Positions 9,432 to 49,439 are shown, counted from the first letter of the whole stretch. The stretch: 63,980 nt of DNA, filler included, from Octopus bimaculoides (GCF_001194135.2; 8 parts of 7 records of this genome joined end to end with filler, not necessarily neighbours in it); one strand, 5' to 3'. Translations and numbers: made by a program. The notes: generated from the sequence alone by a model not told the origin.

Positions 9432-9555
9432 ACATCACAATTGTTTCCGTAAACGGACGATATCATTTATTCCATATCTCTTATAATGTTATGTAATGCA
9501 TAAAATATGGAACAATGTAATAGTAATCGTATAGTCCATTCGCTTCTTCAGATAT
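9432..9555 (-). ncRNA. Type I hammerhead ribozyme motif, long stem II, GUG at the cleavage site (probably inactive copy)
   Basis: 5'-AUAU CUGAAGA [97 nt hairpin: GCGAAUGGAC/GUCCGUUUAC and GUUCCAUAUU/GAUAUGGAAU] GAAAC AAUU GUG AUGU-3'. Confidence 0.6.
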
Positions 9556-9901
9556 TATGATTAGAAAACACGATCGATCAAAATGTTATTTGTAACGTCA
9601 ATTTAACTTCTCCATTCCTCATTTAAATTATTACTTATATTATTCAGTTTGCCTGGCTCATATTACGCTTACAGGACTTTACCTTAGTGTTATGTAGTGC
9701 TCCCTGTAATACCAATGGAAATCTTACGAAACTTCTTTTACCTCTCACTCACAAACTATTTGCATATACCTATGACCATTACCACGACTAACCATCGAAC
9801 AAACTGTTACCCACATTTGATTATTCCTCCTCCTCCTCCTCCTTGTCGTCGTCATCATCTTCATCATCACTAATTATGAGCATAATAGTAACAACAATAA
9901 A

Positions 9902-10335
9902 GGCGGTGAGCTGGCAGAAGCGTTAGCACACCGGGTGAAATGCTTAGCGGTATTTCGTCTGCCGTTACGTTCTGAGTTCAAATTCCGCCGAAGTCGACTT
10001 TGCTTTTCATCGATAAATTAAGTACCAGCTCTGGGGTCGATGTAATCGACTTAATCCGTTTGTCTGTCCTTGTTTGTCCCCTCTATGTTTAGCCCCTTGT
10101 GGGCAATAAAGAAATAAGAAACGTTAGAACACCGGGCAAAATGCTTGGCGGTATTTCGTCTGCTGTTACGTTCTAAGTTCAAATTCCGCCGAGGTCGACT
10201 TTGCCTTTCATCCTTTCGAGGTCGATAAATTAAGTACCGGTTACGCACTGGGGTCGATGTAATCGACTTAATCCTTTTGTCTGTCCTTGTTTGTCCCATC
10301 TATGTTTAGCCCCTTGTGGGCAGTAAAGAAATAAG
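9902..10335 (+). mobile_element. Head-to-tail dimer of SINE family A
   Basis: Unit 1 spans 9902-10120 and unit 2 spans 10121-10335. Unit 2 starts at ACGTTAG and lacks the first bases of the head. Both end in CCCCTTGTGGGCARTAAAGAAATAAG. Confidence 0.9.
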
Positions 10336-10843
10336 GAACAACAATGACAGCAATAACAACATCAGACATCGGATACAATAAAAACAAAACTATGGAAACA
10401 AAGGAATAAAAAGGAAGGAGGAGAGAGAGAGAGAGGGGCAAAGATAGAAAGAAAGTGAGAGAGAGGGGAGAGAGGGGGGGAGAAAGAAGATAAATGGACC
10501 AGCTGTAACAATTTCCGAGGGAGACCATACGTAGTTGATCAACATCCCTCATATCCACACTATGTCTTCAAAACGAAAGAAGAAATTGGGTGATGTGAGT
10601 GTGCAAACACACAATCCAAAAGGTGTGTCAGAAAGTGCGATGCGCTAGCAAATGTTATGAGCGCTGTACATTATAAAAAGCAAAAATACCATACACACAC
10701 ATATATACATATATGGACACTTACATACACACACACATTTATAGATAGATGTATACATGTATATACATATATATTTTATATACATATACATATAATGTAT
10801 ATATGTATTTATATATAATGTATGCATATATACATATATATAT

Positions 10844-11100
10844 TACTCTTTACTCTTTTACTCGTTTCAGTCATTTGACTGCGGCCATGCTGTAGCACCT
10901 CCTTTAGTCGAGCAAATCGACCCCAGGACTCATTGTTTGTAAGCCTAGTACTTCTTCTATCGGTTGCTTTTGCCGAACCGCTATGTTAAGGAGACGTAAA
11001 CACACCAGCATCGGTTGTCAAGCGATGTTGGGGGGTGGCGACAAACACAGACACACAAGCATATATACACGCATACATATATATATATCTATCTATATAT
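10844..11100 (-). mobile_element. SINE family C, 3' half
   Basis: Reverse complement of about 5040-5264 (TTTCAGTCATTTGACTGCGGCCATGCTG ... GACAAACACAGACACACA). Confidence 0.85.
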
Positions 11101-11107
11101 ATATACA

Positions 11108-45469: not shown

Positions 45470-46084
45470 NNNNNNNNNNNNNNNNNNNNNNNNNNNNNNN
45501 NNNNNNNNNNNNNTTAATTAATTAANNNNNNNNNNNNNNNNNNNNNNNNNNNNNNNNNNNNNNNNNNNNATATATATAATCGGTGTGCATTCAAGGCAAT
45601 CATTAGTAACATTACAAAACCGGTATGCTTTTGAATCTCTTTAACAATTCACAATAATGGCGTTTATTACTTTTATTCCTAACTCAATATATCTAATTGT
45701 ATATATCTATCGGTGCTTTCCATTAAAAAAGCCTTTAATTTTTTTGATTTCCACTCTGCATTTTCGCTTATTTTTCTTCTAACTCTCCCCTTACATTTCC
45801 ACGTATAGTTTCTATTTTGTTTTTGTAACATATTTCTATTATATACATATATATATATATATATGTGTGTGTGTCTGTGTGTGTGTGTGTGTGTGTAAGA
45901 GCACTATAACGTCTCTCTGATTCAAAATATTGGAGTATGAAACCAACCCAATGGAAACATCTTATACCTAATAATCAATATTAATTCACATGTCATATTC
46001 CTCTTACCAGTATTTCCCGCCCATCCTGCATGTAAAAAAAGAAATTCACAAAATTTTCCACCGTATTCGTCCCGTACAATATAT

Positions 46085-46215
46085 GATAGGAAGTTTGACG
46101 GAAGAGTGCATAGGCTGACCAAAATAATTTCATGGAATGTGAAGAAGTGACGTTTATTTTTCACTATATTCCCTCTAACAGTCCACACTACTCTTTATCA
46201 TCGGTGCAGTTTTTG
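46085..46215 (-). mobile_element. Mariner 3'-end remnant
   Basis: TIR-like GAAGAGTGCATAGGCTGACC (compare GAAAAGTTCATAGGCTGACT at about 33021) and TTTTTCACTATATTCCCTCTAACAGTCCACAC, the antisense of the C..GDYVEK-type terminus. Confidence 0.6.
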
Positions 46216-49200
46216 GATCCCTTCACTGAAGCTATGATCTATACCTGAAATGATATTAGAACTCGTATTCTAGAGAGATGGGCTGGAATCTTATCCGTTT
46301 ATCATTTTTTGTGAATACTGTGCGTAGAATATTGATTCATTTAGAATATGTGAAATAATTTCCCGGATAAATAATTTATTTACCAAGAAAGTTGAACGGA
46401 ATGATACAATGTAGATCCACCTGTAGTGAATATTCAGTAACAGTATTTGAACGAGAGGGATTTAGCGATTTGTAAATTCGTGAAGAAGAAATTGATCGAT
46501 AAACATATTCAGGAAAGATTATAAGGAGTATATAGGCACAACAACTGTGAATCTTAAAGTATATCTTCAGTTGAGCATTTGATGCTTTATAAGCCTTTTG
46601 AAAATCGTGACGATGATGGGCTGGGGGGATTCAATTATAGATAGGAAAGAGAAAGAAATCTGTTCATAACCATTTTGCGAAAGAGAAAAGAAATCAAAAT
46701 TGCTTGGCATTTGAAATGTGAAAAAATACCAAATTAAAAAGACAAAATAGAAAGCGGGTGGCCTTGGCGAGTGAGTACAAGCAGTGAAAATATAGTGAAT
46801 CAGTCAACTGCGCACAATCATAGAGCAGCGAGAATCGAAGCATCGAAAAATTCTTAGAAATGATAAAGTCTAAAAATTACAGCGTTGATCCTGTCATAAT
46901 GTTTGATGCCACAGCTTGGATAGCATCAAAAATCAATATATACGGAATAAGAGATGGAGAAATATCAGATTTGAAACTAGCAAAGGATCCATTCTACAAC
47001 TTCAATGAAAATGAATACTTTATTCCCCAAATATTACAAAGATGTCAAGTAACGGCGCTTGCTTTGTATTCTTATTCTTGATAAAATGCAACTCTCTTAG
47101 TAAAGGTTCAAAAATGGAATATTTAATACAAAACAATCGTTGGTATGGAGATTCAATATTTAAATTTTCAGTGCGTTTGTTACGTTAACTTTTTTTGCAA
47201 TACACGCATTTGAAGGAATTCTCAATTCTTTTGTATATGCTTTGTCATATCTGCATTGATATGTAAAATATATTCAAAACAATCTCAAGAAGTTTGATCC
47301 GATTTATAGAACTTATCTGTAACCATGAATTATAGAAAAGCGATTATCAAAAACTTTTGATCGATTTTTCCGACTATTCAAAACATAGTTTCAGTCACAA
47401 GGAAAAAATATATAACATATTTAGATTTTAGTAAGTTAGTATACTTAATTATCAACATAATCATACACGTATCTCCATATTAGACTTATGTTATTGCGAT
47501 ATCAAAGTTACTGAAGTACATTTAGTTGTCGATTAATCCGAAAATACCTTCATAGATCATCTTAATGGAGGAATCTTTTGGCAAAGTACACAATTACAAA
47601 ACTGAACGTGTAATGTATATGAGGAAGTCTGGAGATGTTTACCTGAAGCGAACATTTTTGCTGAAAGCCAACGTACAGTGCTGTGTACAAGATCTAATAT
47701 ATTACAATCCAATTACTGCTATTAAACATATTTCGATAAACGTAAGCAAACTTTATAGCATCTTTACAATTGAAGATTATATCGGAAGAAACAACGTCTT
47801 TTGAACAGACAAATACAGCATATCTTTACTGATTTTCTATATTGTTACGTTCAAGATTAACTCAAACATCTCAATTTAGAGAATCTTACGAATTTTATCA
47901 ACGATTGCCATACGTTTTAAATAGATTAACATGTATTTTTAAACATTTTCAGGAATTTTTTTTTTTTTTTTTGCAATTCATTGCTTGTGCTATTTCGATA
48001 AAATAATCAGTTAATTGCTCGAAGGTCGTTGTATTAATCAGTGAAACATTTGCTATAAAACTGATGACTGATAAATATTCTTTGGGGAAATGCTATTGGT
48101 GAACTTCCTTTAAAGAGATAGGCAAGCTCAGACACACAGTCATACAGAGAAGCGCACACATATGTAATTTCAGTTGTGTAAAGTAATATATGTTTACGTA
48201 CACATACGGAAAGAAATTTATATATGGGGTGGGGGGGATTCGGAATCCGGAATTTTGCTGAAGTTGTAGAAATTCTCTGACAACCTCTTCAGTCTCTTTC
48301 CGGAGATATGACAAGGAGACGAATTCTTCTGCCAAATATATGGCCTTCCAGCAGCAACCCGGAGATAGTTTTTATTAGTTTCATAATGCCGATTGAATTG
48401 AGCCTAACCGCAATTCAAATATATGGAGACGTATTCCAGCTTTTGCACACAGCAACAACGCCGGTTCAGTAGTCGCTTCTGCCAGTGAAGTTTTCATAGC
48501 CTATGTTGCAATCGCCTCTGTTAAGTCTTGCAACCATATATATCGTTCACAGAACATTGAGCATCAGGTATGATCTAAACATTTTCTTTCCGGTGCAAAT
48601 CCTCATGATACAGATAACTCTTTACCAGTATTCAGACGGCTACAATTCCTGCATTTCAGCTAACTTTCTTTCAACTCTAAATGTAATCAATCAATACCGT
48701 TGACTTATCCCTAATGCACCAACCATTTGTAGAATAAAATGGAACATCACAATCGTTCAATTTATTATGAAAACCCTGTATTTATGTGTGCATGTTTGGG
48801 CATATTGGAGCCCGCTTGATAACGGGAGCGCATTTCCTTCTGTAACTTTAAGGTTAGAAAAAAACACAGATATAAAAATTACCCTACTCACAAAAATATA
48901 TACTCTGTCGATTAGTTTGTTTACGTGGGTGCTCCAACATGTCCATAGTGACATGACTGAAATAAGCTCAAAAGAACAAGAGAAAGTGTAGAAAATTTAC
49001 ACACACACACACACACACACACACACACACACACACACACACACACACACACACACACACACACACATATATATATATATATAATATTATCAGAGATAAA
49101 AATCCAAATTTACAGGTAAAAACTCAATTCAATTCAATTCAATTTATTAAAAATTAAAGTTAAACTAAGTTTCGCAGTATAAACTATAGGTATAAATATA

Positions 49201-49331
49201 TAGTTTTAGGGAAAAGAACCAAGGTTCATGAACTCATCGATGAAAATCCACTGTCACATATAGAAAAATTAATAAAAATACAATAAATAAGTATAATACA
49301 AAGTAAATATCATAAGATAATGATAAGAAAA

Positions 49332-49439
49332 CGACTATACGTGTTTCATAACCAATTTTCAAATAGAAAGAATATTTAAATCGATTAAAACTATCTCGAA
49401 AATCAATTCTATTCAAAAATATAGCTAATCTTCAGATCA
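49332..49439 (-). ncRNA. Type I hammerhead ribozyme motif, long stem II, decayed (C-A mismatch in stem III)
   Basis: 5'-UGAU CUGAAGA [U UAGCUA U AUUUUUGAAUAGAA ... UUCUAUUUGAAAAU UGGUUA U; 81 nt] GAAAC ACGU AUA GUCG-3'. Confidence 0.7.

What the first reader, a model, noticed from the sequence alone, without database searches (positions are those of the whole stretch)
9432..49439. System-level: recurrent long-stem-II, dimer-type hammerhead ribozyme architecture in five unrelated sequences
Seen: five motifs (9432-, 11213-, 15968-, 28223+, 49332-) have CUGANGA and GAAAC cores and different but pairing stems I (AUAU/AUGU, UGCAG/CUGCA, GGCU/AGCU, UUCC/GGAA, UGAU/GUCG). Stem III loops AAUU, GUGC, AGUU, AUAU, ACGU, plus GAUC in the 16737 half-copy, are all self-complementary when G-U is allowed. 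Every one has a mismatch at 10.1-11.1 (A-G, U-U, A-A, U-U, U-U) and a 54-97 nt stem II hairpin. Established: PLE pseudo-LTRs carry minimal type I hammerheads, some of which cleave as dimers through a palindromic stem III. Canonical hammerheads have a short stem II closed by an R-Y pair. Inference: this genome may hold a high-density class of PLE-derived or retrozyme-like ribozymes whose extended, base-mismatched stem II is missed by standard descriptors. Three of the five have no recognisable RT/EN coding sequence nearby.
Basis: partly seen in the sequence, partly recalled or inferred. Interest (0 to 1): 0.8.

Follow-up and report, generated by a model that had tools for sequence, protein, structure and literature searches.

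The report
Long-armed hammerhead ribozymes in Penelope retrotransposons
Five hammerhead-type RNA motifs in this likely octopus DNA have one arm at least twice as long as in related jumping-gene ribozymes from other animals, which hides them from a published search pattern; one sits at the tail of a Hydra-type Penelope retrotransposon, the others likely come from such tails, and self-cutting is predicted, not shown.

Summary
The five motifs and the half-copy are real: 5 observed, 0 in 300 shuffles. The 28223+ motif ends a 5'-truncated Penelope-like element (PLE) of the Hydra clade: GIY-YIG remnant, ~790 nt UTR, hammerhead, 46 nt tail, (TA)n. This whole unit is a multicopy repeat in public runs. 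The other four have no detectable ORF; PLE origin is inferred. U·U at the base of stem II occurs in 24 of 51 Hydra-clade hammerheads I collected and in print. The palindromic C-N4-G stem III occurs in 7 of 51. Only the 54-97 nt AU-rich stem II is distinctive: relatives have 10-25 nt and the published descriptor caps near 26 nt. One spike-moss PLE precedent of ~54 nt exists. Two copies are decayed (G17; C·A). RNA-seq shows no end pile-up at the predicted site. Lünse 2017 could not be read. The scan's earlier notes showed nothing similar. Verdict: new structural variant of a known ribozyme in a known retroelement clade; activity untested.

The parts
28220..28311 (+). Intact type I hammerhead motif; core 28227-28304, 59 nt stem II (16 bp basal helix under U·U), stem III C-AUAU-G, A17, 7 bp stem I; predicted cut 28304|28305
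   Evidence: family variants
27059..27436 (+). Degenerate C-terminal GIY-YIG endonuclease remnant of a Hydra-clade PLE, 5'-truncated
   Evidence: Pfam GIY-YIG E 0.0017, below cut-off; 37% to full-length P0006; profile hit 3e-35; no CCHH
27437..28219 (+). Long AT-rich 3' UTR joining the endonuclease to the hammerhead
   Evidence: repeat-level depth in 28 of 30 bins in two DNA runs; the gap is a skipped repeat at 27527-27637; no single piece spans the whole stretch
28312..28350 (+). 3' tail ending at a (TA)n tract
   Evidence: 46 nt from core end
11213..11301 (-). Intact hammerhead motif; core 11296-11218, 60 nt stem II under U·U, stem III C-GUGC-G, A17, 5 bp stem I
11104..11212 (-). 3' tail shared with the 16737 half-copy, ending at (TA)n
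11425..11465 (+). Inverted copy of 11293-11333 (41 of 41 nt) running into an assembly gap; PLE-type inverted 5'-truncated copy
   Evidence: arrangement described for PLEs in PMC8557442
16693..16873 (+). 5'-truncated half-copy of the 11213 family: distal and 3' stem II, GAAAC, loop GAUC, stem I 3' strand, tail; starts at (TA)n
15968..16048 (-). Hammerhead motif with intact core; 54 nt stem II under A·A, stem III C-AGUU-G, A17; begins 23 nt after a TA tract
49332..49439 (-). Decayed hammerhead motif; 81 nt stem II under U·U, C15.2·A16.2 mismatch; tail of 252 nt to (TA)n
9432..9555 (-). Decayed hammerhead motif; 97 nt stem II with frayed base, G17
53065..54950 (+). Context: a second, broken Hydra-clade PLE (RT and EN, DKT motif) with an inverted copy at 52500-53049; no hammerhead found with it

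Best explanation
These are type I hammerhead motifs from the 3' ends of Penelope-like retrotransposons, shown for the 28223 copy (Hydra clade) and likely for the other four, in which stem II has grown into a 54-97 nt AU-rich hairpin and which are predicted to cut RNA mainly as dimers. Shown: the anatomy; the link endonuclease-UTR-hammerhead-tail-(TA)n for 28223; its multicopy nature with far more 3' ends than ORFs; that core, U·U foot and C-N4-G stem III match the Hydra-clade type. Inferred: in a transcript spanning two tandem pseudo-LTRs, two motifs would pair through the 8-nt palindrome AC-N4-GU and swap stem I strands, forming a double hammerhead that cuts after A17 and trims the element RNA. 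Stem II makes no evident loop-loop contact in this type, so its length is likely weakly constrained, and long AU-rich helices would replace the short GC-rich ones of relatives. The solo, inverted or decayed copies in this window are likely mostly inert remnants of 5'-truncated insertions, at least five families deep.
For: (5 vs 0 in shuffles); depth 2,000-11,000 over ORF and most of the UTR, 40,000 and 244,000 over the two hammerhead bins in run X1, same shape in X13; position 7 varies (A, U, C) in loose-end consensi while the core stays; T28283C in 75,636 of 95,252 depth (X1) goes with G at 28243 in loose-end consensi (A-U to G-C); T28277A likely goes with U at 28249 (A-U to U-A); these pairings are inferred from separate tables, not phased; loop III GUGC vs GAUC, two changes, still self-complementary; for 28223 the active dimer equals the two-strand minimum (-52.8 kcal/mol vs -44.0 for two monomers); 60 of 105 Hydra-endonuclease loci carry a type I hammerhead just downstream; of 51 unique, 24 have U·U and 7 have palindromic C-N4-G; stem II region 10-25 nt. 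GC 0.20-0.37 here vs median 0.57 in 55 short stems; inverted 5' copy at 11213; (TA)n within 260 nt downstream for 4 of 6 (background 25%).
Against: No cleavage evidence: in two raw RNA runs reads come from both strands and cover the predicted site, with no listed pile-up of ends at 28304/28305 (about 6% of each run read; fragmented libraries are poor for this, and the Anolis PLE hammerhead also gave no such ends). For 11213 and 15968 the predicted monomer fold is an alternative structure 6.6-6.7 kcal/mol below the active one, and the active dimer is 2.2 and 4.8 kcal/mol per strand above the minimum. No two same-family copies lie in tandem in the window. Four motifs have no linked ORF, so their clade is not shown. 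The published octopus Hydra-1_Obim hammerhead has a short stem II, and a possible short-stem motif lies at 51572-, so long stems are not universal in this lineage. Paired changes in a hairpin can also arise by template switching without selection.
Confidence: 0.72

Rival explanations
1. The long stem II is itself selected: a protein-binding or RNA-editing-sensitive arm, or part of a folding switch that keeps monomers inactive, added to the Hydra-type hammerhead in this lineage.
For: All five GAAAC-type motifs in the window are long although unrelated in sequence; hairpin energies -15 to -20 kcal/mol exceed the median -4.4 of short relatives; paired changes in the long helix; alternative folds bury the cut site in 11213 and 15968 monomers; A>G makes up 20-21% of changed places in RNA runs vs 11% in DNA runs.
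Against: No shared sequence or length among the five long stems; indels at 28245-28248 among copies; short-stem Hydra hammerheads work in the same position in 51 relatives and in Hydra-1_Obim; the A>G excess cannot be placed on the hairpin from the rows shown and may reflect subfamily differences.
Confidence: 0.18
2. They are non-autonomous retrozyme- or SINE-like units that carry the hammerhead and are mobilised in trans by PLE proteins.
For: Hammerhead bins are 20-100 times deeper than ORF bins; four motifs have no ORF; animal retrozymes are proposed to derive from PLE pseudo-LTRs (preprint 10.64898/2026.07.22.740005).
Against: No tandem units in the window; 5' truncation, typical of PLEs, gives the same depth gradient; the 28223 copy is joined to an endonuclease remnant; 16737 is cut inside stem II.
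Confidence: 0.08
3. Chance matches in AT-rich repetitive DNA.
For: The descriptor was post hoc; whole-motif folding z-scores are weak for 9432 and 49332 (-1.06, -0.36); one sequence in three viral loci passed a looser long-stem filter.
Against: 0 of 300 shuffles; 0 of 121 viral pattern matches pass all three structure filters; position at the canonical PLE site.
Confidence: 0.02

Closest known systems
Hydra-clade PLE hammerheads (Craig et al. 2021, PMC8557442, File S2; Hydra magnipapillata example in Cervera and De la Peña 2014, Fig. S3)
   Same: Type I, downstream of a C-terminal GIY-YIG lacking CCHH, short tail, (TA)n targets; extra base on each side of stem II, U·U in 14 of 26 listed rows (counted by eye); GAAAC...GU-H stem III.
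   Different: Stem II region at most about 26 nt there and 10-25 nt in my 51; here 54-97 nt and AU-rich. Stem III mostly has 7-8 nt between GAAA and UH there, 6 here. Endonuclease-to-core distance up to 524 nt in my set, about 790 nt here.
Minimal PLE hammerheads (Cervera and De la Peña 2014, PMC4209133; Lünse et al. 2017, not read)
   Same: In pseudo-LTRs, mostly solo copies from truncated PLEs, palindromic stem III, weak dimer cleavage, great sequence diversity within a genome.
   Different: Consensus has G10.1-C11.1 and stem II 3-7 bp with loop 3-10 nt; that descriptor finds none of the five.
Axolotl and newt retrozyme hammerheads HHR_Amex1/2 (PMC7229834)
   Same: Single-pair helix III with palindromic tetraloop (Amex1); U·U at the foot of helix II (Amex2: 22% cleavage as monomer, more as dimer).
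   Different: Tandem 330-350 bp non-coding repeats with loop 1-loop 2 contacts and short helix II; no tandem arrays here.
PLE-X1_sMoe hammerhead of Selaginella (Craig 2021, File S2)
   Same: PLE-borne type I hammerhead with a stem II region of about 54 nt (9 bp plus 35 nt loop, counted by eye), marked as non-canonical.
   Different: Single family in a plant, endonuclease-less Chlamys-related element, 5' position; not a recurring multi-family trait.
Naiad 'HHR_half_core' cases (Craig 2021)
   Same: Core halves far apart (35-50 nt), including cephalopod families.
   Different: In the octopus and bobtail squid consensi I read GAAAC lies upstream of CUGAUGA, the opposite order; read by eye for 3 of the 55-row Naiad table's families that reach this region.

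Membership tests
Type I hammerhead ribozyme | Core CUGANGA, GAAA, A15.1-U16.1 in type I order | tested here: met
   5 of 5
Type I hammerhead ribozyme | H (not G) at position 17 and paired 15.2-16.2 (NUH rule recalled) | tested here: inconclusive
   Met in 3 of 5 (11213, 15968, 28223); 9432 has G17, 49332 has C·A
Type I hammerhead ribozyme | Three helices around the core | tested here: met
   Stem I 4-7 bp, stem II 17-28 bp, stem III 2 bp or 6-8 bp as dimer
Type I hammerhead ribozyme | Site-specific self-cleavage after N17 | not testable with these tools
   RNA-seq lay shows no end pile-up at 28304/28305; not a sensitive test
Hydra-clade PLE (28223 element) | C-terminal GIY-YIG endonuclease without CCHH, with CxxC and CxH around the conserved E and N | tested here: met
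   P0001 aligns to the C-terminus of 30 full-length relatives; CxH kept, CxxC decayed
Hydra-clade PLE (28223 element) | RWK and DKT motifs, CxCX5C linker | tested here: inconclusive
   This copy is truncated just after the linker; DKT and RWE are seen in the neighbouring element at 53065, a different copy
Hydra-clade PLE (28223 element) | Hammerhead in the 3' end, short tail, (TA)n target | tested here: met
Hydra-clade PLE (9432, 11213/16737, 15968, 49332) | Linked Hydra-type ORF | tested here: inconclusive
   No ORF remnant upstream by tblastn, profile or Pfam (Pfam covered three of the four upstream regions); absence is expected for short truncated copies
Minimal PLE hammerhead (Cervera 2014 descriptor) | Stem II 3-7 bp, loop 3-10 nt, G10.1-C11.1 | tested here: not met
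   0 of 5
Non-LTR retrozyme | Tandem 150-400 bp repeats each with a hammerhead | tested here: not met
   No tandem same-family copies in the window; genome-wide not testable
Non-LTR retrozyme | Abundant circular RNA | not testable with these tools
   No go-back joints listed in two RNA runs on the one family laid
Rfam hammerhead families | Covariance-model score | tested here: not met
   No hammerhead among the 150 of 220 whole-window hits shown or in two local scans; also none in 12 short-stem Hydra loci

The most novel reading that the evidence does not exclude
Octopods carry a very large, so far invisible population of PLE hammerheads (six in 60 kb here) in which many unrelated families keep a 50-100 nt stem II because it is a selected regulatory arm, such as a binding platform for the element protein or an A-to-I editing substrate, that gates dimer cleavage.
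Probability: 0.18. Interest if true: 0.65.

Novelty: new variant of a known kind. Interest (0 to 1): 0.36.

Why it matters
Published PLE hammerhead counts rest on a descriptor that caps stem II near 26 nt, so genomes like this one are undercounted and elements scored as lacking hammerheads deserve a rescan with long stems. The role of PLE hammerheads is an open question (PMC8557442); natural long- and short-stem versions within one clade, and within octopus, give a simple comparison for whether stem II matters to cleavage or protein assistance. It does not add a new ribozyme class or a new element class.

Tried and rejected
No genome is held for the window, so no genome-wide search, covariance model or R-scape-type test was run. 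Rfam: only microsatellite-driven miRNA hits. The repeat finder was swamped by microsatellites. Hydra proteins found no relatives in viral contigs. Word-index search with the endonuclease remnant found nothing; the profile-free full scan did (1893 at E 0.001). No RNA holder was listed with a large share: no evidence either way. Naiad half-core idea rejected for the cephalopod consensi read. A Naiad-like RT remnant upstream of 49332 seemed possible by eye but had no Pfam or profile support. The Hydra survey had 44 loci without a downstream hammerhead and one without an endonuclease match; 22 of the 44 had 300 nt or more downstream; the long-stem scans (which recover 3 of the 5 window motifs) found 0 hits in all 105 loci (324,899 nt). 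One of the 51 unique motifs (L270) is Poseidon-type, not Hydra-type. These loci were the best 78 of 556 metagenome matches to a generic Hydra endonuclease profile plus 27 from genome bins, so they under-sample close relatives of the octopus families. Literature searches found no report of long-stem-II PLE hammerheads as a class; Lünse 2017 and the Terminon paper are not held, and one supplementary file of PMC4209133 was not searched, so a prior description there cannot be excluded.
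Full report
OBSERVATION. The window is AT-rich animal DNA full of microsatellites and gaps. It is likely octopus: the broken element at 53065-54950 closely resembles the published Hydra-1_Obim protein by eye. 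No genome is held. Cores are 9551-9436(-), 11296-11218(-), 16044-15972(-), 28227-28304(+) and 49435-49336(-), with 97, 60, 54, 59 and 81 nt between CUGANGA and GAAA. Loops III are self-complementary in all five. In 300 dinucleotide shuffles (500-nt chunks or whole segments) the strict descriptor never hits; even the core-plus-stem-I level averages 0.01-0.03 against 5 observed. The descriptor was post hoc. Stem II hairpins have 17-28 bp and z -2.6 to -4.8. 9432 has G17 and 49332 a C·A in stem III, so three motifs are intact. The half-copy at 16737+ is a 5'-truncated member of the 11213 family; the five full motifs share no detectable sequence.

CONTEXT. Upstream of 28223 lies a 125-residue remnant (P0001) with a weak Pfam GIY-YIG hit and 37% identity to the C-terminus of a full-length relative. 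It aligns with 30 full-length proteins that have the CxCX5C linker and no CCHH, the Hydra clade as defined in PMC8557442 section 11. Laying two DNA runs and two raw RNA runs on 27050-28345 at 80% likeness gives repeat-level depth in 28 of 30 bins: about 2,000-11,000 over ORF and most of the UTR, rising to 40,000 and 244,000 over the hammerhead in X1, with the same shape in X13 (a second organism label). Depth is not a copy number and no single piece spans the stretch, but the pattern fits one 5'-truncated retroelement family with the hammerhead at its 3' end, 46 nt before (TA)n. The 11213 copy has an inverted 41-nt duplicate of its upstream flank and core start, a PLE hallmark. Four of six copies end at (TA)n within 260 nt (background 25%). 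For 9432, 11213, 15968 and 49332 no ORF remnant was found, so their clade is inferred from anatomy only.

VARIATION AMONG COPIES. In one search the loose-end consensi show position 7 as A, U or C with the rest of the core kept. T28283C dominates (75,636 of 95,252 in X1; 2,051 of 2,379 in X13; 134 of 151 reads in X21), and the loose-end consensi show G at the partner 28243, turning A-U into G-C. T28277A likely pairs with a change at 28249. These pairings are pieced together from two tables, not phased, and only 40 of 391 substitution rows were shown. Between 11213 and 16737 loop III changes at two positions and stays palindromic. Small indels occur in the distal stem (28245, 28248).

COMPARISON SET. 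An endonuclease profile retrieved 78 metagenome and 27 genome-bin loci, which look like animal host DNA. In 60 of 105 a type I hammerhead follows the endonuclease; 51 are unique. Their stem II regions are 10-25 nt; the foot is U·U in 24, G-C in 23; 7 have the 6-nt C-N4-G stem III, all palindromic. No long-stem hit was found in 324,899 nt with scans that recover 3 of the 5 window motifs. Short stems are GC-rich (median 0.57, -4.4 kcal/mol, 55 stems) and the window's are AU-rich (0.20-0.37, -15 to -20.5). Rfam misses both kinds. The Cervera-type descriptor, with a 6-8 nt stem III insert allowed, hits 62 of 105 loci and none of the five motifs.

MECHANISM. Established from papers: metazoan PLE hammerheads sit in pseudo-LTRs, cleave weakly and mainly as dimers (PMC4209133; PMC6765202); one needed element protein and was not required for insertion in vitro (PMC11167929); U·U at the foot of stem II is tolerated (PMC3088659; PMC7229834). 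Computed: for 28223 the double hammerhead is the two-strand minimum (-52.8 vs -44.0 kcal/mol), and the active monomer is 1.5 above its minimum; for 11213 and 15968 alternative folds win as monomers by about 6.6, and the active dimers remain 2.2 and 4.8 per strand above the minimum; the decayed copies are 7-10 above. Inferred: transcripts of tandem elements would bring two pseudo-LTR motifs together and cut after A17; the copies here are solo or inverted and are likely mostly inert. Against activity in vivo, or at least not for it: RNA reads from both strands cover the predicted site, and the only listed pile-up is 8 molecules at 28340 in one run. The long stem is most simply a weakly constrained arm that lengthened in AT-rich sequence; a selected role is the main rival.

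WHAT IS KNOWN. File S2 of PMC8557442 lists Hydra-clade hammerheads with U·U in 14 of 26 rows and loops II of 3-10 nt, including a short-stem Hydra-1_Obim from octopus, and one spike-moss PLE hammerhead with a stem II region of about 54 nt. The 2014 descriptor explicitly allows an extra base on each side of stem II and caps it at 7 bp plus 10 nt, so the lack of long stems in published tables is partly built in. 'Long helix II' in viral type I hammerheads means 6-8 bp (PMC13725137). The cephalopod Naiad half-cores I read have the halves in the opposite order. Seen: PMC4209133 parts 1-2 of 4 and passages of one supplement; PMC8557442 passages, section 11, supplement parts 1, 2, 24, 25, 52, 53 and two searches; PMC7229834 passages and section 15; preprint 10.64898/2026.07.22.740005 part 1 of 5 and passages; passages only of PMC11167929, PMC6765202, PMC13725137, PMC6962438, PMC3088659, PMC7761336. 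Not seen: Lünse 2017 and Arkhipova 2017. Eight searches found no description of long-stem-II PLE hammerheads as a class. Hammerhead numbering and the NUH rule are recalled.

VERDICT. Observation confirmed; interpretation partly supported. Works like a dimer-type PLE hammerhead (predicted). The 28223 copy belongs to a Hydra-clade PLE; the others likely do. The mismatch and the palindrome are known; the recurring 54-97 nt stem II across at least five unrelated families in one genome appears undescribed in what I could read. New variant of a known kind, interest 0.36.

Noticed in passing
window 27050-28345 family, table 1: A>G makes up 20-21% of changed places in two RNA runs against 11% in two DNA runs, while T>C is equal (15-16%); a hint of A-to-I editing of sense transcripts, not separable from subfamily or sample differences.
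   Followed up: partly
window 51572 (-) core start: Possible short-stem minimal hammerhead (5 bp stem II, 3 bp stem I) found by the published-type descriptor; unverified.
   Followed up: partly
window 52500-54950 and 55216-56598: Broken Hydra-clade PLE with an inverted partial copy; its 3' UTR is cut by an element with 206-nt terminal inverted repeats (Tc1/mariner-like by eye); further Hydra RT scraps at 56862-56984+ and 24556-24166-.
   Followed up: partly
PMC8557442 supplement S5, 3' ends of Naiad_Obim, Naiad_Ovul, Naiad_Esco and Acropora Naiads: GAAAC...GU lies upstream of CUGAUGA, the order of a permuted (type II-like) hammerhead, in elements reported to lack canonical hammerheads; read by eye only.
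   Followed up: no
L319-L344: Hydra-clade PLEs with hammerheads inside bacterial genome bins from marine hosts, most simply animal host DNA binned by mistake.
   Followed up: no
L241-L345: Hydra-clade hammerheads fall into two foot types (U·U 24, G-C 23 of 51) and Rfam detects none in 12 loci tested; a model for this type seems to be missing.
   Followed up: partly
window 26468-27058, 58181-59089, 20705-21489: Other transposon remnants: mariner-like fragment abutting the PLE remnant, pogo-like transposase ORF, RTE-like LINE 3' fragment (by eye).
   Followed up: no
window 38822+ and 50311+: Isolated UGAAAC-N4-GUA half-sites without an upstream core or stem I partner; no support as hammerheads.
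   Followed up: partly
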